Shown here: positions 1 to 8,939 of the stretch, in pieces
Layout: the number at the start of each line of letters is the position of its first letter
Position numbering within the stretch: the stretch's first letter is position 1
Source of the DNA: Sphingomonas sp.
GTDB lineage: Bacteria; Pseudomonadota; Alphaproteobacteria; Sphingomonadales; Sphingomonadaceae
Direction: 5' to 3'
Length of the DNA: 64,000 bases
Assembly (NCBI GenBank): GCA_037200705.1
Contig: JBBCID010000011.1
Span: 248,148 to 312,147, forward strand
The notes under the pieces: model-generated
Told to the model about the DNA's origin: nothing
Seen by the model: the letters and a program-made list of their open reading frames with translations, nothing else
The model's database searches: none
Translations under genes and position numbers: made by a program

Positions 1-130
1 CGCGGGTGCGATCGGCGCGGGCGGGCAGGGCGCGCTGTCGCTCTCGCCGCAGCGCGAGCTGCTCATCCCCGATCGGCCCGACACCGCCCAGCGCGAGGTG
101 CCGGGGCTGTTCTGAGGCCGGTGCCGCCGC

Positions 131-553
131 TCAGACCAGCTGGTTGAGCCGCGCGAAGCCGAGCGTGTCGAACATCTCCATCACGCTCACCGCCTTGCCG
201 TCGCGGAAGCGCCAGATGTCGGCCTTGGCGGTCCGCGCCTCGCGCCCCGAGCGTGGATCGCGCCAATGGCAGCTGCCGATCCACACCACCGTATCGCCCT
301 GCGCCACGATTTCCTCGGTCGGGAACTCGAGCATCTCGAGGTTGAGCACGAGCGAATCGAGATAGTCGCGGGCGTGCTCGATCCCGATGCGCTCCTGCGC
401 CATCGGATGCGGCTCGGCGGGATTGAGCACGGTGCGCATGACGATCTCGTCGGCGAGCAGGTCGAGGAACAGATCGGAGCTCGCCCCCTTGGTCTCGTGC
501 CACTGCTGATAGGCGTGGCGGAGACGATCGACGGGCGGCGGCGCTGAGGGCAT
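131..553 (-). CDS. SnoaL-like / NTF2-family protein
   Basis: 140-aa ORF with NTF2-like pattern (EEIVAQGDTVVW...ADIWRFRDGKAVSVMEMFDT); AGGAG RBS upstream. Confidence 0.8.
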   Translation of the reverse strand: MPSAPPPVDRLRHAYQQWHETKGASSDLFLDLLADEIVMRTVLNPAEPHPMAQERIGIEHARDYLDSLVLNLEMLEFPTEEIVAQGDTVVWIGSCHWRDPRSGREARTAKADIWRFRDGKAVSVMEMFDTLGFARLNQLV

Positions 554-585
554 CGGCGGCTCTCCTGATCCAGCGTTGGCTGCAA

Positions 586-601
586 GTTACACAAATGTAA
601 C
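586..601. promoter_or_regulatory. Palindromic operator-like site GTTACA-CAAA-TGTAAC
   Basis: Perfect 6-bp inverted repeat just upstream of the SnoaL-like gene. Confidence 0.35.
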
Positions 602-621
602 GATCGCCCACAATGGGGGGT

Positions 622-672
622 TGCAGCCGAAATGGTACTGATCGAGATCAACCCTGGACACTTCGTTGGGGA
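622..672 (-). ncRNA. Putative small hairpin ncRNA (Y-RNA/YrlB-like)
   Basis: Minus strand CCAACGAAGTGTCCAGGGTTGATCTCGATCAGTACCATTTCGGCTG: CGAAGTG pairs with CATTTCG; lies at the end of the tRNA-like array. Confidence 0.3.
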
Positions 673-734
673 GAGGAACTCGGGGAGCGCTCAATTCGGG
701 AAGGCGCGGGATTCGCGCTTCCGCTGGGGAAGGA

Positions 735-806
735 TGGTGCCCCGGGGGACTCGAACCACCCTCGCGCGGACCTCGACCCGCCGCTCTACCTCAGAGCTAC
801 TCCGGC
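735..806 (-). pseudogene. Degenerate tRNA-like gene
   Basis: GCCGGAG-TA-GCTC-TGAGGTA-GAGC D-arm, GGTTCGAGTCC T-loop, 3' ACCA; 6-nt anticodon loop and broken acceptor stem. Confidence 0.7.
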
Positions 807-808
807 AT

Positions 809-884
809 TGGTGCCCTGGGAAGAATTCGAACCTTCGACCTTCCGCTCCGTAGGCAGACGCTCTTTCCACTGAGCTACCGGGGC
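809..884 (-). tRNA. tRNA-Arg(ACG), divergent
   Basis: 76-nt cloverleaf GCCCCGG...CTACGGA anticodon loop...GGTTCGAATTC...CCAGGGC-A-CCA; one C5:A68 mismatch. Confidence 0.85.
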
Positions 885-895
885 GCTTTGACGCT

Positions 896-969
896 TGGTG
901 CCGCCGGAATGCGCGGAGCGTGTCGGAGCGATCCCGGGGGGATCGTACGACGCGCGCGCTTTCGGCGGC
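896..969 (-). ncRNA. Rod-shaped hairpin RNA with tRNA-like acceptor stem and ACCA end
   Basis: GCCGCCG/CGGCGGC perfect 7-bp stem followed by A-CCA; interior folds as one long hairpin capped by CGATCCC/GGGATCG; no D or T loop. Confidence 0.5.
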
Positions 970-987
970 AAGGACGCGGGATGGGGC

Positions 988-1030
988 TGCAGCGGGGTGG
1001 ATTCGAACCACCAGTCTCAGCGTTATGGGG
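988..1030 (-). pseudogene. 3' half of a tRNA-Met(CAT)-like gene
   Basis: CCCATAA loop, CGCTG, AGACT, perfect T-arm GGTGG-TTCGAAT-CCACC; 5' half absent. Confidence 0.6.
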
Positions 1031-1052
1031 TCAAAGAGTTGGCGATGAGGGC

Positions 1053-1063
1053 TTGACAGTCAA
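1053..1063. promoter_or_regulatory. Palindrome TTGAC-A-GTCAA (bidirectional -35-like element or operator)
   Basis: Perfect inverted repeat giving TTGACA on + and TTGACT on -, between the RNA array and the synthetase gene. Confidence 0.35.
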
Positions 1064-1127
1064 CTTAGAAAGGGCGGCCATGGAACTTACGCCAACTACG
1101 TATTTGCGTCGGGGAAGGATGGGGCCC

Positions 1128-2528
1128 ATGTCGACCCAAGAACGTGCTATCGAAAAAGCGGTGGGTATCTACGAGCGATGTCATCGATCCTTTCAGACGA
1201 TGGCACAGCACGTCAACGATACTATTAGAGACCGGTGTGACCCAGCACTACTCCACACCATAGAGTATCGCGCCAAAACCACCGAAAGCTTTCGTCGCAA
1301 AGCTCAGAAATCCGAAAACGGAGTACCTAAATACCCAGACCCGTTAAATCAACTAACGGATTTGTCAGCAGTTCGGGTGATTGTATTCACTCGGAACGCC
1401 GTGAACGATATATGCGACGTTGTTGCGAGCATGTATAATATAGTTGAAAAAGAGGATGTTGGAGAAAGGGTCTATAAGGAAAGGCGATTTGGATATCAGA
1501 GCATACACATCGTAGTGGAGCTCGATCGAAAGCTGTATATTGGGCTAGAGCCCAAAATAAAAAAGGCGCTCTGTGAAATACAGGTGCGAACGGTACTGCA
1601 GCATGCTTGGGCAGAAATGGAGCACGACATTCAATATAAGGGGAGCAATATTCCGGCGGAACTAGCGAAAAGATTTTCGGCTCTTGCAGGTCTTCTTGAA
1701 ATTGCTGACGGAGAATTTCAAAGAATTCAGCAGGATAGCTCAAAATTGAAGAGCGCCGTTCAGTCCAAACTGCTCGACGACCTGACTCAACAGGGATTCA
1801 ATCCGGATTCAGCGCCAAATTTGCCGATTTATAGTGTAAGAAATGTACGCCAGCTAGTAAGCGAGGGACGATATTCTGAGGCGCTAGAATGGTACAACGA
1901 CAAGATTAATAATGAGCCTAACAACCATACCGTCAAGATCGGACGCGCGAAGGTTTGGTTTCTTATAGGGGATTCGTCTAAGGCCTTGGAGGATTTAGCC
2001 GCCGCCGAAGCAATCATCCCTTCTGACCCGGTCATCGCACGTACTCGTAAGCTGGTAGAGGAGGGCGACGCCGACTCCCTCCGGGCTCAAGGTGCTGGCG
2101 GCTATGACCCCGGCTTGTTACAATCCGCATTAAACTCTTTGCGTAGAGGAGACGGAATTCAAGCCTTCGATGAGTTTACCACGCTCGAAGCACAGGGTTA
2201 TAATAAAGCCCTCTCTCTATTTGGTAAGTCATTAGCATGTACGATTGAAGGCGATGTGCTGGGTGCCTGGGATTTTATTGCAACTCTTAAAATAATTCCT
2301 GGAACTCCGATGTCGGTAAATATCTGTGCCCTCCAATACGTACTTCGGCTTCTTGAAGGTAAGCCTGCGGATGAAATATTAGGCGAAATTAAGCATATGA
2401 TGTCATTGGTGCCGGATTTTACGCTACCGCAGTCTCATATTGATCTACTGCTCTCTGGTATGCGAGAGAGGGGCGTTTCACTTATCGACGAGATAGCATC
2501 TAACCTCAATTTCTTGCGTAAGGCGTAA
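1128..2528 (+). CDS. RelA/SpoT synthetase-domain (small alarmone synthetase-like) protein with C-terminal TPR repeats
   Basis: Motifs RAKTTESFRRK, TDLSAVRVI, GYQSIH, EIQVRTVLQHAWAEMEHDIQYK; TPR-like GRYSEALEWY...IGRAKVWFLIGDSSKALEDL; GGGGAAGG RBS; visibly AT-richer than flanks. Confidence 0.9.
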   Translation: MSTQERAIEKAVGIYERCHRSFQTMAQHVNDTIRDRCDPALLHTIEYRAKTTESFRRKAQKSENGVPKYPDPLNQLTDLSAVRVIVFTRNAVNDICDVVASMYNIVEKEDVGERVYKERRFGYQSIHIVVELDRKLYIGLEPKIKKALCEIQVRTVLQHAWAEMEHDIQYKGSNIPAELAKRFSALAGLLEIADGEFQRIQQDSSKLKSAVQSKLLDDLTQQGFNPDSAPNLPIYSVRNVRQLVSEGRYSEALEWYNDKINNEPNNHTVKIGRAKVWFLIGDSSKALEDLAAAEAIIPSDPVIARTRKLVEEGDADSLRAQGAGGYDPGLLQSALNSLRRGDGIQAFDEFTTLEAQGYNKALSLFGKSLACTIEGDVLGAWDFIATLKIIPGTPMSVNICALQYVLRLLEGKPADEILGEIKHMMSLVPDFTLPQSHIDLLLSGMRERGVSLIDEIASNLNFLRKA

Positions 2529-2536
2529 GCAAGCAA

Positions 2537-4590
<2,054 letters not shown>

Positions 4591-4611
4591 CACGGACTCT
4601 AGCGGATCGGA

Positions 4612-5469
4612 TCAGAAAGTATAGGCCAGCCCGAGCACGGCGGTCCATTGGCTCGGCGATCCGGCGATGCGCGTCACCGGCGTGTCGGCGGCGTCGTTCA
4701 GCAGGCGGCGGTACGAGACCGCGCCGACCAGCGACAGGCCGTGGGTCAGATCGCCGGTGAGCGACACGTCGCCGATGCCGGTGATCGAATAGTCCTTCCA
4801 GCCCTTGCCCGCGCTGAACGCGGGGAGGCCGCTCGCGGCGCTGCCGGCGGGGGTGACGCCGAAATAGGTCTGGGCATAGCCGCCGCCCATGTAATCGGCG
4901 GCGAGCGAGAGGCCGACATAGGCCTTGGTGCTGAGCGGGGTGCCGTAATCGATCGCGGGGGTGATCAGATAGCTGCGGTACACGTGGTTGACGTCGCGCG
5001 TGTAGGCCACGCTGACGCTGAGCTTGTCGTAATCGCTGGTGATCAGCCCCTGCTTGCCGATGCCGATATAGCCGCCTGCCTCGATCGCGGCGCGTAGCTT
5101 GCCGAGCGCGCGGACGCGGGGATCCTTGATCGACGACGAGCGGTTGAAATTGACGCTGACGACGGGGCCGAGCTCGAAATCCCAGCCGGGGCCGCCCTTG
5201 GTGGGGATCAGATCGGCCCAGAAGCGGTTTCCGCGCAGCGTGAAGTTGATCCGCGAGACGCGCCCGATCACGCCGGGGACGGGCGAGAACACCATATCGT
5301 CCGACCCTTCGTAGCTCGGGACCGCGCCGGCGCCGATGCCGATCGTGAGCGAATCGCCGTCGAGCTTGGCGGGATCGATCACCGGCGCGGGCTTGGTGTC
5401 CTGCGCGATCGCGGGGGCGGCGATCAGCAGGGTCGCGAGAAGGGCGAAGGGACGCGGGATACTCGACAC
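4612..5469 (-). CDS. MipA/OmpV family outer membrane protein
   Basis: Signal peptide, PSYEGSDD motif, C-terminal GLAYTF; AGGAG RBS before GTG. Confidence 0.88.
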   Translation of the reverse strand: MSSIPRPFALLATLLIAAPAIAQDTKPAPVIDPAKLDGDSLTIGIGAGAVPSYEGSDDMVFSPVPGVIGRVSRINFTLRGNRFWADLIPTKGGPGWDFELGPVVSVNFNRSSSIKDPRVRALGKLRAAIEAGGYIGIGKQGLITSDYDKLSVSVAYTRDVNHVYRSYLITPAIDYGTPLSTKAYVGLSLAADYMGGGYAQTYFGVTPAGSAASGLPAFSAGKGWKDYSITGIGDVSLTGDLTHGLSLVGAVSYRRLLNDAADTPVTRIAGSPSQWTAVLGLAYTF

Positions 5470-5543
5470 GGAGACACTCCTGAATATGTTGCACGTGCGA
5501 AACGCTTCGGATCGGTAATCGCTCCGTGCGGGCTCGGCAAGGC

Positions 5544-6248
5544 TCAAGCGTCGAACGCGCCCACCCCGCCGTCGGTCCTGCACAGCCGGTCCCAGAAGCG
5601 GAAATAGAGGCCGAAATTGCACGCGTAGCGCTCGTGGTGGCGCTGGTGGTGGCTCGCGGTGATCAGCGGCCCGTGGATCAGGACGCGCGGAAACAGCTCC
5701 CAGCCCATGTGGTTGGTGACGCCCATCACCGTCATGATCGCGAGGACGAGGCCGAGCGCGGCGACGTGGATCGGGATCAGCAGGACCAGCGCGGGGATCA
5801 CGACCGCGCCGGTGACCGCCTCGAGCGGATGGAAGCTCATCGCCGCCCAGGCGGTGGGCGGGCGGCTGGCGTGATGGACCGCGTGTGCGCGGCGGAACAG
5901 CGCCGGGCGGTGCATCAGCCGGTGGGTCCAGTAGAACCAGGTGTCGTGCACGAGCAGGTAGAGCAGCACCGAGACCGGCAGGTACCAGAGCGGGGAGGCG
6001 TGGACGTCGGTATAGATCCGCGTCCAGCCGCGATGGGCCCAGCCCCAGGCGACCACCCCGGCGGGCACGCCGTAGATCGCGGCGCTGGCGAGGCTCCAGC
6101 CGATCTCGCGACGGATCTGCGGGATGAGGCTGGCGTAAAGGCCGGGGTGGCGCAGCCGCGTGGCGAACGCGAAGCCGCCCGAGGCGAGCAGATAGCGCAC
6201 GCCGACGATCAGCGTCATCGCCAGCGCGGAGAGGAGGATCGGCGCCAT
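5544..6248 (-). CDS. crtG: Sterol-desaturase-family carotenoid 2,2'-beta-hydroxylase (probable CrtG)
   Basis: His boxes HRLMH, HAVHH, HHQRHH; located beside the crtYIB cluster. Confidence 0.75.
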   Translation of the reverse strand: MAPILLSALAMTLIVGVRYLLASGGFAFATRLRHPGLYASLIPQIRREIGWSLASAAIYGVPAGVVAWGWAHRGWTRIYTDVHASPLWYLPVSVLLYLLVHDTWFYWTHRLMHRPALFRRAHAVHHASRPPTAWAAMSFHPLEAVTGAVVIPALVLLIPIHVAALGLVLAIMTVMGVTNHMGWELFPRVLIHGPLITASHHQRHHERYACNFGLYFRFWDRLCRTDGGVGAFDA

Positions 6249-6330
6249 GCCCGCCACCCTATCACCGGGGCGCGAAAGCGCGAACAGCGAGCGCGGCCGG
6301 CACCGCATGGGCACCGGCCGCCGTTCGCCC

Positions 6331-7197
<867 letters not shown>

Positions 7198-7300
7198 CGA
7201 AATTCTCCGGTCTCAATTGTTGACAAGGTCTCAGATAGAGACCAATAACCGATCCGTGAAGACGGCATTTTTCCGTCACCTGGTTACGCGGGAGTTCCCT

Positions 7301-7699
7301 ATGGACGCGCATGCGGCGCTCGGCGCCAAATTCGAAGGCTGGCTGGCGATGGGGTTCGACGAAACGCGCTGCCCTGTGCGCAACCTGCTCGATCAGATCG
7401 GCGATCGCTGGTCGATGCTGCTGCTCGCCGCGCTCGCGGGCGGGCCGAAGCGCTTCAGCGCGCTCGCGCGCGGGGTTCCCGACATTTCGAAGCGGATGCT
7501 CACCCAGACGCTGCGCACGCTCGAGACCGACGGATTCGTCCATCGTGACGTCCGGCCGACGGTTCCGCCCAGCGTGACCTATTCGCTCACCCCGCTCGGC
7601 CGGAGCTTCGCCGCGCCGCTGCTCGGGCTGGTCGAATGGGCCGAGGCCAATTTCGGCGCGGTCTGCGCGGCGCGGGCGCGGATGGCGCAGGCGGCATAG
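7301..7699 (+). CDS. HxlR-family transcriptional regulator (QorR/YtfH-like)
   Basis: [42 protein letters not shown]; divergent from the oxidoreductase. Confidence 0.9.
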
Positions 7700-7775
7700 C
7701 GGGGCCGCCGCTCGGGCAGGCGGGGCATGCTCGTGGGGGTTTCCCCCATGGAATCGATCCGCTAGGCCGCGCTGC

Positions 7776-8939
7776 ATGCCGGTCACCATCACCTGTGACG
7801 TCGCGATCGTCGGGGGCGGGCTTTCGGGCGGGCTGATCGCGCTGGCGCTCAAGCGCAGGCGGCCGGACTGCGACGTGCGGCTGATCGACGGCGGCCGGCG
7901 GATCGGCGGCAACCATCTCTGGTCGTTCTTCGCGAGCGATGTCGCCGCGCACGATCGCTGGCTGGTGGCGCCGGTGATCAGCTATGGCTGGACCAGCTAT
8001 GACGTTGCCTTCCCCGCGCACCGGCGGACGATCCGCGCGCCTTATTATTCGATCGAATCCACGCGGCTCGATGCCAACGTACGCGAGGCGCTGCCCGAAG
8101 ACGCGCTGATGCTGCGCCGCAAGGTGCTCGCCGCCAGCTCGAAGGCGGTGGTGTTCGCCGACGGCGACCGCGTCGAGGCGGGCGGGGTGATCGATTGCCG
8201 GGGGCCCGGCGATCTCGCGTTGCTCGATCTCGGCTGGCAGAAGTTCCTCGGCCGCGAGCTGCAGCTCGGCGACGCGCACGATCTCGAGCGCCCGTTGCTG
8301 ATGGATGCGACGGTCGAGCAGGACGACGGGTATCGCTTCGTTTATTGCCTCCCGTTCGCGGCGACGCGGATGTTCGTCGAGGACACCTATTACAGCGATA
8401 CGCCTGCGATCGACGCGGCGGCGATCGGCGGCCGGATCGACGCCTATGTCGCGGCGCGCGGCTGGCAGGTCGAGCGCGTGACGCGCGAGGAGGCCGGCGC
8501 GCTGCCGGTTGCGATGGGCGGCGATTTCGAGGCCTATTGGCAATCGGGCGGCAACAAGGTCGCCAAGGCCGGGCTGCGCGCCGGGCTGTTCCACCCGATG
8601 ACCGGCTATGCGCTGCCCGATGCGGTGCGCGCCGCGGCGCTGGTGGCGGGCGCGGGCGACCTGTCGGGCGCGGCACTGCACGAATTGCTCCACGGCCTCG
8701 CGCGAAAGACGTGGAAGCGGCGGCGCTTTTATCGGATGCTCGCCGCCATGCTGTTCAAGGCTGCCGAACCCGCCGCGCGATACCGCGTGCTCGAACGCTT
8801 CTACCGGCTCGATCCCGGGCTGATCGCGCGCTTCTATGCCGGGCATTCGAGCCTGTTCGATCGCGCGCGGCTGCTCTCGGGCAAGCCGCCGGTGCCGATC
8901 GGGCGCGCGGTCCGGGCGATGTGGGGGACGGCCAAATGA
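7776..8939 (+). CDS. crtY: Lycopene beta-cyclase
   Basis: GGGLSG, GGNHLWSFF, MDATVEQDDGYRFVY, GLFHPMTGY. Confidence 0.95.
   Translation: MPVTITCDVAIVGGGLSGGLIALALKRRRPDCDVRLIDGGRRIGGNHLWSFFASDVAAHDRWLVAPVISYGWTSYDVAFPAHRRTIRAPYYSIESTRLDANVREALPEDALMLRRKVLAASSKAVVFADGDRVEAGGVIDCRGPGDLALLDLGWQKFLGRELQLGDAHDLERPLLMDATVEQDDGYRFVYCLPFAATRMFVEDTYYSDTPAIDAAAIGGRIDAYVAARGWQVERVTREEAGALPVAMGGDFEAYWQSGGNKVAKAGLRAGLFHPMTGYALPDAVRAAALVAGAGDLSGAALHELLHGLARKTWKRRRFYRMLAAMLFKAAEPAARYRVLERFYRLDPGLIARFYAGHSSLFDRARLLSGKPPVPIGRAVRAMWGTAK

What the first reader, a model, noticed from the sequence alone, without database searches (positions are those of the whole stretch)
622..2528. RelA/SpoT-TPR synthetase gene divergent from an array of tRNA-mimic RNAs: candidate RNA-regulated toxSAS or defence module
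Seen: an AT-richer stand-alone synthetase gene with all four catalytic motifs, a TPR C-terminus, no hydrolase domain and no obvious neighbouring protein antitoxin. It sits head-to-head with up to five closely packed tRNA-like units, three of which end in ACCA and only one of which is a normal tRNA. A TTGAC-A-GTCAA palindrome lies between them. Known: several toxSAS families (FaRel2, PhRel2, CapRel) pyrophosphorylate tRNA 3' CCA ends, and CapRel is a self-inhibited anti-phage sensor-effector. Inference: the TPR domain may be the sensor or auto-inhibitor, and the CCA-ended RNAs may be decoy substrates, RNA antitoxins or replacement tRNAs. The linkage could also be chance insertion into a decaying tRNA cluster.
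Basis: partly seen in the sequence, partly recalled or inferred. Interest (0 to 1): 0.8.

Follow-up and report, generated by a model that had tools for sequence, protein, structure and literature searches.

The report
TPR alarmone synthetase in defence hotspot
An intact foreign gene for an alarm-nucleotide-making enzyme with a helical-repeat tail sits in a fast-changing slot where related bacteria often keep anti-phage and toxin genes, so it is likely a self-contained defence or stress effector, while the tRNA-like pieces beside it are probably leftovers of a phage-type tRNA cluster rather than its regulators.

Summary
The gene is real: an AT-rich, stand-alone small alarmone synthetase (SAS) with a TPR tail (likely start 1128, 466 aa, catalytic residues intact). 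The 'five tRNA mimics' are one tRNA-Arg(ACG), one decayed phage-type tRNA-Phe, one 3' half tRNA, one unique CCA-ended hairpin and one stretch that is not tRNA-like. The proposed RNA-enzyme partnership fails its own test: 0 of 14 homologue loci carry tRNA-like units, and the Phe relic lies behind thiC in two genomes whose thiC locus lacks this gene. The synthetase resembles RelP/RelQ more than CapRel and probably belongs to the uncharacterised MixRel subfamily; the SAS-TPR design is published (Tde-SAS, TPR as brake). New here: the thiC 3' end is a hypervariable cargo slot in this genus (29 of 60 AT-rich versus 6 of 313 controls), holding DarT-NADAR, a CapRel-like gene and other defence or toxin-antitoxin genes. 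Best reading: a TPR-braked (p)ppGpp synthetase acting alone, likely in phage defence, inserted next to a decaying array. An earlier scan note on another genome also called the thiC flank an insertion hotspot; none covered this protein.

The parts
1128..2528 (+). SAS-TPR gene, 466 aa: synthetase domain ~1-225, TPR-like helices ~227-315 and ~322-463
   Evidence: GC 0.47
809..884 (-). tRNA-Arg(ACG), one C5-A68 mismatch; best relatives are accessory tRNA-Arg genes of plasmid and phage arrays (87% to a plasmid tRNA-Arg(CCG))
735..806 (-). decayed phage-type tRNA-Phe(GAA): anticodon loop one base short, acceptor 3' strand two bases short and mispaired; ends GGCACCA
896..969 (-). CCA-ended rod hairpin with a perfect 7-bp tRNA-Thr-like acceptor stem; inside not tRNA-like; no homologue found
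   Evidence: z -5.6
982..1030 (-). 3' half of a CAT-anticodon tRNA (anticodon, T arm); 5' half missing, CCA out of register
1104..1127 (-). copy of the 3' end plus spacer of the Phe-like unit (24 nt, 83% like 719-742); abuts the ATG at 1128 and supplies a purine-rich RBS-like stretch on the + strand
1053..1063 (.). TTGACAGTCAA palindrome; not conserved at homologue or thiC loci
2537..4450 (-). thiC, whose 3' end bounds the variable cargo slot (TPP riboswitch at 4485-4592)
131..553 (-). SnoaL-like gene, other flank; host-like GC3 0.89

Best explanation
The gene is an intact, AT-rich, stand-alone alarmone synthetase with a TPR tail in a hypervariable cargo slot behind thiC, and it likely works alone as a TPR-braked (p)ppGpp-making effector, probably against phage, while the neighbouring tRNA-like units are likely decaying remnants of a phage-type tRNA array that it landed beside. 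Shown: intact catalytic motifs, RelP/RelQ-like fold, foreign composition, no conserved neighbour gene or RNA, slot shared with defence and toxin-antitoxin genes in relatives. Inferred: (1) the TPR part holds the synthetase down in cis, as measured for Tde-SAS, which explains why no antitoxin is needed; (2) a protein ligand, most plausibly a phage protein, binds the TPR and releases the brake; (3) the product is (p)ppGpp, perhaps with some (p)ppApp, and stalls the cell; (4) the gene replaced the upstream part of the array, because a leftover tRNA 3' end and spacer abut its ATG. My odds: independent of the RNAs 0.9, nucleotide rather than tRNA acceptor 0.7, anti-phage role 0.55-0.65.
For: No tRNA-like unit at 14 homologue loci (Rfam 0 hits; tRNA profile best E 4.2 while it finds three window units and both relics). 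Their neighbours differ (uvrA, hisS/pcm, sucD, glyoxalase, others) and the gene is 0.09-0.24 GC below its flanks in 10 of 11 loci measured. Near-full-length homologues in 2 of 330 other genomes of the genus. thiC slot: GC<0.60 in the next kb in 29 of 60 genomes against 6 of 313 host-like genes of G000 and 2 of 56 distal kb; first ORFs fall into 54 clusters of 59. 13 of 69 cargo ORFs scanned hit PADLOC (11 loci), including DarT with NADAR, PDC-M34, PDC-S08, PDC-S42, an RT and PD-T7-3; G072 has a CapRel-like gene in the same slot and orientation, without tRNA relics (E 4e-28 to 7ztb). Fold: Z 18.6 RelQ, 18.5 RelP, 12.8 CapRel, 11.9 Tas1; sequence E 3e-12 to 7e-7 for RelP/RelQ-type, 0.08 for CapRel. 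Tde-SAS: TPR removal raises synthesis about 3-fold, makes ppGpp (PMC10434055). Phe unit: 91% over 56 nt to a phage tRNA-Phe; all 10 unpaired cells are in the three chromosomal copies, none in the two phage copies.
Against: No activity, toxicity or phage test exists for this clade. Tde-SAS was non-toxic in E. coli and looks housekeeping. Kurata et al. state there is no clear sequence signature for tRNA-using toxSAS, so the product is not fixed by sequence. Most homologues sit alone between housekeeping genes, not in defence islands; only the Limnohabitans plasmid copy is among TA genes. No PADLOC control set was run, the 60 thiC genomes are related and were picked by thiC similarity, and many cargo ORFs have no family. 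The closest homologues (53-60%, P0003-P0007) were mostly out of reach: one was seen, with 577 nt upstream (L195). The PADLOC hit of the protein itself (PDC-S33, 59.5 bits) covers only the synthetase domain.
Confidence: 0.6

Rival explanations
1. Accessory stress-response SAS with no defence role: a Tde-SAS-like, mildly active (p)ppGpp source tuned by a host ligand through the TPR, carried as horizontally moved cargo; the RNAs are unrelated relics.
For: Tde-SAS has the same domain order and is non-toxic; ESM Atlas look-alikes are spirochaete SAS-TPR clusters; motif neighbourhood is ActRel/MixRel/DsRel; most homologues have no defence neighbours.
Against: Patchy, AT-rich, present in 2 of 330 other genomes of the genus; occupies a slot that relatives fill with DarT-NADAR, CapRel-like and TA genes.
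Confidence: 0.25
2. Self-inhibited tRNA-pyrophosphorylating toxSAS (works like CapRel, TPR instead of the pseudo-zinc finger), independent of the neighbouring RNAs.
For: Single-gene, foreign, in a slot used by a CapRel-like gene; no sequence signature excludes tRNA use.
Against: Far closer to RelP/RelQ than to CapRel in sequence and fold; only 26% over 87 aa to the G072 CapRel-like protein; its R. solanacearum homologue is the likely MixRel of that genome, not one of the four tRNA-targeting subfamilies.
Confidence: 0.1
3. One reading: the CCA-ended RNAs are decoy substrates, RNA antitoxins or replacement tRNAs for the synthetase, co-regulated through the palindrome.
For: Divergent layout; three units share G1-C72, C2-G71, C3-G70-type ends with A-CCA; the 896-969 hairpin is unusual (z -5.6; such strongly folding CCA-ended stems occur at 0.006 per kb in the assembly), and minihelices are FaRel2 substrates.
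Against: 0 of 14 homologue loci have such RNAs or the palindrome; the Phe unit occurs without the gene in G097 and G190 and is broken differently in each; its acceptor stem, the part toxSAS read, is the most damaged; the hairpin has no homologue in 270 genus genomes or 50,697 phage records; tested toxSAS antitoxins act as proteins.
Confidence: 0.05

Closest known systems
Tde-SAS (TDE1711, DsRel / SAS-TPR) of Treponema denticola (PMC10434055)
   Same: N-terminal synthetase with Syn1-4 plus C-terminal TPR domain, no hydrolase; TPR shown there to brake synthesis.
   Different: Tde-SAS is the only synthetase of its host and non-toxic in E. coli; this protein is longer (466 vs 410 aa), is rare foreign cargo, and probably falls in MixRel, not DsRel. 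No direct pairwise comparison with TDE1711 was possible.
MixRel SAS subfamily (Jimmy et al. 2020, PMC7229694, Dataset S2)
   Same: An intact 486-aa homologue (35% identity, 89% coverage) lies in R. solanacearum RS 489, whose only listed SAS is MixRel; the LQHAWAE.EHD.YK motif is in MixRel and ActRel rows.
   Different: MixRel is paraphyletic and I found no functional study; the TPR-tailed clade is not described in my searches.
CapRel SJ46 (fused toxSAS, PDB 7ZTB)
   Same: Single-gene synthetase with a C-terminal regulatory domain; a CapRel-like gene fills the same thiC slot in G072.
   Different: Pseudo-zinc-finger antitoxin rather than TPR; distant in sequence (E 0.08) and fold (Z 12.8 vs 18.6 for RelQ); modifies tRNA.
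Type I PANGU Pag1B/GRel (bioRxiv 10.64898/2026.04.06.716658)
   Same: SAS with a C-terminal partner-binding domain that makes pppGpp as an anti-phage effector.
   Different: Needs a neighbouring nucleoid-associated sensor gene; none is conserved here.
Phage and plasmid tRNA arrays / L-arrays (PMC8421152)
   Same: Closely packed same-strand tRNA genes with encoded CCA, spread horizontally; the Phe and Arg units match such tRNAs.
   Different: Only one unit is intact here; no rtcB or homing endonuclease beside it.

Membership tests
Small alarmone synthetase (RSH SYNTH only) | SYNTH domain with Syn1-4 residues, no HD domain | tested here: met
Small alarmone synthetase (RSH SYNTH only) | (p)ppGpp or (p)ppApp synthesis | not testable with these tools
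   needs enzyme assay
MixRel | best score to the MixRel HMM of Jimmy et al. | not testable with these tools
   HMMs not held; Dataset S1 too large to read
MixRel | full-length homologue classed MixRel in the published table | tested here: inconclusive
   RS 489 lists one SAS, MixRel[S], and has an intact homologue; the table gives no protein id, so the link is inferred
DsRel (SAS-TPR) | SYNTH plus C-terminal TPR architecture | tested here: met
DsRel (SAS-TPR) | phylogenetic membership of the spirochaete/deltaproteobacterial clade | tested here: inconclusive
   motif rows seen differ (LQDAWAE in DsRel, LQHAWAE here); no tree with references could be built
Bicistronic toxSAS (FaRel, FaRel2, PhRel, PhRel2, split CapRel) | conserved adjacent antitoxin gene | tested here: not met
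   no ORF space in the window; neighbours differ among homologue loci
Fused CapRel | C-terminal pseudo-zinc-finger antitoxin and full-length similarity to CapRel SJ46 | tested here: not met
   C-terminus is TPR-like; PDC-S33 model 59.5 bits over 20-178 against 290 bits full length for the G072 CapRel-like protein
tRNA-pyrophosphorylating toxSAS (mechanism) | pyrophosphate transfer to tRNA CCA; basic CCA groove | not testable with these tools
   no sequence signature; surface charge of the model not available
Type III-like RNA antitoxin system | RNA array conserved with the toxin gene | tested here: not met
   0 of 14 loci
Functional tRNA gene array (L-array) | several intact tRNA genes in tandem | tested here: not met
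   1 intact tRNA
Y RNA / YrlA tRNA mimic | Rfam YrlA match and Ro60/Rsr or rtcB neighbour | tested here: not met
   no YrlA match at E<=5 in window 1-8000; flanking genes are SnoaL-like, SAS and thiC

The most novel reading that the evidence does not exclude
In this lineage a TPR-gated synthetase modifies tRNA CCA ends on sensing phage, and phage-derived CCA-ended RNAs, above all the unique 896-969 minihelix-like hairpin, were co-opted as decoy substrates that buffer it: the first RNA-controlled alarmone-synthetase-family toxin. The less bold version (single-gene TPR-sensor alarmone anti-phage system, no RNA role) has a probability near 0.5 and would deserve about 0.6.
Probability: 0.05. Interest if true: 0.85.

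Novelty: new variant of a known kind. Interest (0 to 1): 0.38.

Why it matters
If right, a widespread, unstudied MixRel-type clade adds a single-gene design to alarmone-based immunity: a TPR sensor fused to a (p)ppGpp synthetase, next to CapRel (tRNA) and PANGU (two genes). The thiC 3' slot is also a practical source of candidate defence genes for this genus, since most of its AT-rich cargo has no family. The RNA-regulated toxin that gave the finding its high first score is unlikely.

Tried and rejected
Array DNA against 60 relatives and 400 genus genomes: only generic tRNA hits and the G097 Phe relic (2 candidates scored per genome, so weak hits can be missed). Units 1-2 against 270 genus genomes: 10 hits at E<=1e-4, none in a tRNA array, read as chance matches in GC-rich DNA. 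Units 2 and 5 against phages: only E>=0.7. Viral scans for the protein motif, the Arg D-arm and unit 1 found nothing. The acceptor pattern of unit 2 matched about 1100 viral stretches; of 121 matches examined 10 lay in loci with an ARAGORN tRNA, mostly tRNA-Thr, and no array-embedded rod was seen. The spacer match in homologue locus L194 is inside unrelated sequence downstream, without tRNA features. No sigma-70 promoter or terminator was called between 500 and 1900. Sequencing runs: one DNA run holds the locus in one contig (probably the source); two short RNA contigs (479-709, 2052-2256, depth 2) from the same sample do not cover the tRNA units and show nothing about expression; no joint skipping the gene. 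A partial-thiC tree puts G097 with G190 and G000 with G179, so the relic is not simply clade-inherited, but 656 columns of a recombining gene end are weak. Literature searches that found no description of this clade or slot. No complex prediction was run (no partner claimed).

Full report
Observation. The window is from a 62%-complete, GC 0.69 assembly (G000); I infer a Sphingomonas-like alphaproteobacterium from gene content (recalled, no call names it). The + strand ORF ending at 2528 encodes a RelA_SpoT synthetase domain (E 2.6e-20) without hydrolase. Homologues align from the ATG at 1128 (466 aa). Syn residues are invariant in 52 of 52 sequences, Y123 in 51 of 52. The AlphaFold model (pLDDT 91, pTM 0.79) matches RelQ and RelP at Z 18.6 and 18.5, CapRel at 12.8, Tas1 at 11.9, and two C-terminal blocks match TPR proteins at Z about 11, a level that helical repeats reach easily; the profile search also finds TPR proteins for positions ~250-310. 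The gene has GC 0.47 and GC3 0.47 against GC3 0.90 and 0.89 for thiC and the SnoaL gene.

The RNA region (minus strand). 809-884 is a tRNA-Arg(ACG) whose best relatives are accessory tRNAs of plasmid and phage arrays. 735-806 is a decayed tRNA-Phe(GAA): 91% over 56 nt to an intact phage tRNA-Phe, with a shortened anticodon loop and a short, mispaired acceptor strand. 982-1030 is the 3' half of a CAT tRNA. 896-969 is a 74-nt rod with a perfect 7-bp stem and ACCA (z -5.6); its stem equals that of many tRNA-Thr genes but its inside is not tRNA-like. Such strongly folding CCA-ended stems occur 34 times on both strands of the assembly (0.006 per kb), so it is unlikely to be chance inside a tRNA array, yet it has no homologue in what I searched; its origin is unexplained. 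633-733 is not tRNA-like. A 24-nt repeat (719-742 and 1104-1127; the 12-mer core occurs only at these two places in the assembly) puts a second tRNA-type 3' end and spacer directly against the start codon. I infer that the array once ran further and the gene replaced that part; a local duplication is an alternative.

Linkage test. Homologue loci came from GTDB (24 of 64 parts scanned, 80 loci kept, 7 near full length), JGI metagenomes (4), plasmids (5 records at >=80% coverage, 2 fetched for context) and the genus (19 of 330 with a match, 2 near full length, which appear to duplicate loci already held and were counted once, plus one matching positions 6-318). In these 14 loci (13 near full length, 1 partial; 11 with >=1.5 kb upstream, 2 with ~0.6 kb, 1 with none) Rfam finds nothing at gathering score and a tRNA profile that detects three window units and both relics gives at best E 4.2. 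Of 73 synthetase-only relatives, 7 have a single ordinary tRNA within 6 kb and none an array. Neighbour genes differ (44 ORFs scanned). Conversely the Phe relic lies 1.3 and 4.9 kb behind thiC in G097 and G190 (2 of 60 thiC loci), beside other cargo such as YefM-YoeB, with no match to this gene in those genomes at E<=1e-25. All 10 unpaired cells of the cloverleaf fall in the three chromosomal copies. The pattern search (2 of 400) was designed from those two copies and is not independent.

The slot. I fetched 60 of the 187 other genomes with a thiC match, taken from the top of the similarity list (three stretches are under 2 kb). The kb after the thiC stop has GC<0.60 in 29 of 60, against 6 of 313 long host-like genes in G000 and 2 of 56 distal kb; first ORFs form 54 clusters among 59. 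I scanned 69 of 96 low-GC3 ORFs: 13 hit PADLOC at E<=1e-5 in 11 loci (one is a generic methyltransferase), and Pfam adds NADAR, PIN/DUF433, ParE, Panacea, AIPR and HEPN. G072 has a CapRel-like fused gene in the same position and orientation as ours. No control scan against PADLOC was run and the genomes are kin, so this is a strong pattern, not a statistic. G169, marked unpublished, is only part of the denominators of the genus searches.

Family. Jimmy et al. Dataset S2 lists R. solanacearum RS 489 with one SAS, MixRel; that genome has an intact 486-aa homologue, 35% identical over 89%. The LQHAWAE motif appears in ActRel and MixRel rows of their alignment. MixRel is therefore the likely label, by inference. 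The SAS-TPR design is published for DsRel: Tde-SAS makes ppGpp, its TPR is a brake, and it is not toxic in E. coli. The tRNA-modifying subfamilies are FaRel2, PhRel, PhRel2 and CapRel, but the same paper says they have no clear sequence signature, so tRNA use is disfavoured, not excluded.

Mechanism and verdict. Most likely a self-contained, TPR-braked (p)ppGpp synthetase moved as cargo, released by a ligand such as a phage protein; the brake, trigger, product and anti-phage role are all inferred. The RNAs are most likely relics. Interest 0.38: the RNA-regulated toxin is unlikely, but an unstudied single-gene candidate and a defence-rich slot remain testable.

Papers seen: PMC10434055 (abstract, section 5, first part of Discussion); PMC7229694 (passages; supplement file 1 rows, cut when stored; file 4 passages; file 3 searched without hit; Dataset S1 and SI appendix too large, and they may hold the MixRel members and FlaGs contexts); 10.1101/575399, PMC11782079, 10.1101/2024.07.05.602228, 10.1101/2021.04.30.441581, 10.64898/2026.04.06.716658 and PMC8421152 (passages only; bioRxiv supplements closed). 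Not-in-print statements rest on searches of an open-access library only.

Noticed in passing
3' end of thiC in 60 genus genomes (L134-L193): Hypervariable AT-rich cargo slot holding DarT-NADAR (L144), CapRel-like (L177), PDC-M34 (L138, L166), PDC-S08 (L147), PDC-S42 (L187), an RT with a small upstream ORF (L188), PD-T7-3-like (L193), AIPR, Panacea, PIN/DUF433, ParE and many ORFs without a family.
   Followed up: partly
L016 5684-6001 and L020 5313-6001: Two near-full-length homologues sit right after uvrA, and two others (L017, L018) right after hisS: possible further cargo slots.
   Followed up: no
window 896-969 (-): Unique CCA-ended rod hairpin with tRNA-Thr-like acceptor stem; origin unexplained.
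   Followed up: partly
window 809-884 (-): The tRNA-Arg(ACG) has G37 and is 87% like a plasmid tRNA-Arg(CCG), so it may be an anticodon-switched copy; no other ACG tRNA is in the incomplete assembly.
   Followed up: partly
window 4485-4592 (-): Ordinary TPP riboswitch in front of thiC.
   Followed up: yes
window 570-632: Imperfect inverted repeat between the RNA region and the SnoaL gene (z -1.9); not called as a terminator.
   Followed up: partly
L103 1503-1573 (G097) and L417 5275-5343 (G190): Solitary broken phage-type tRNA-Phe copies behind thiC, each damaged differently, near YefM-YoeB-type genes.
   Followed up: yes
L142 (G179) just after thiC: Three AT-rich genes: methyltransferase, HARE-HTH protein and 8xMP membrane protein; looks like an unnamed defence-type cassette.
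   Followed up: no
L200 (NZ_CP081947.1): A 19-kb record labelled as a Pseudomonas plasmid carries what look like actinobacterial chromosomal genes and one tRNA-Arg; possibly a contaminant contig.
   Followed up: no
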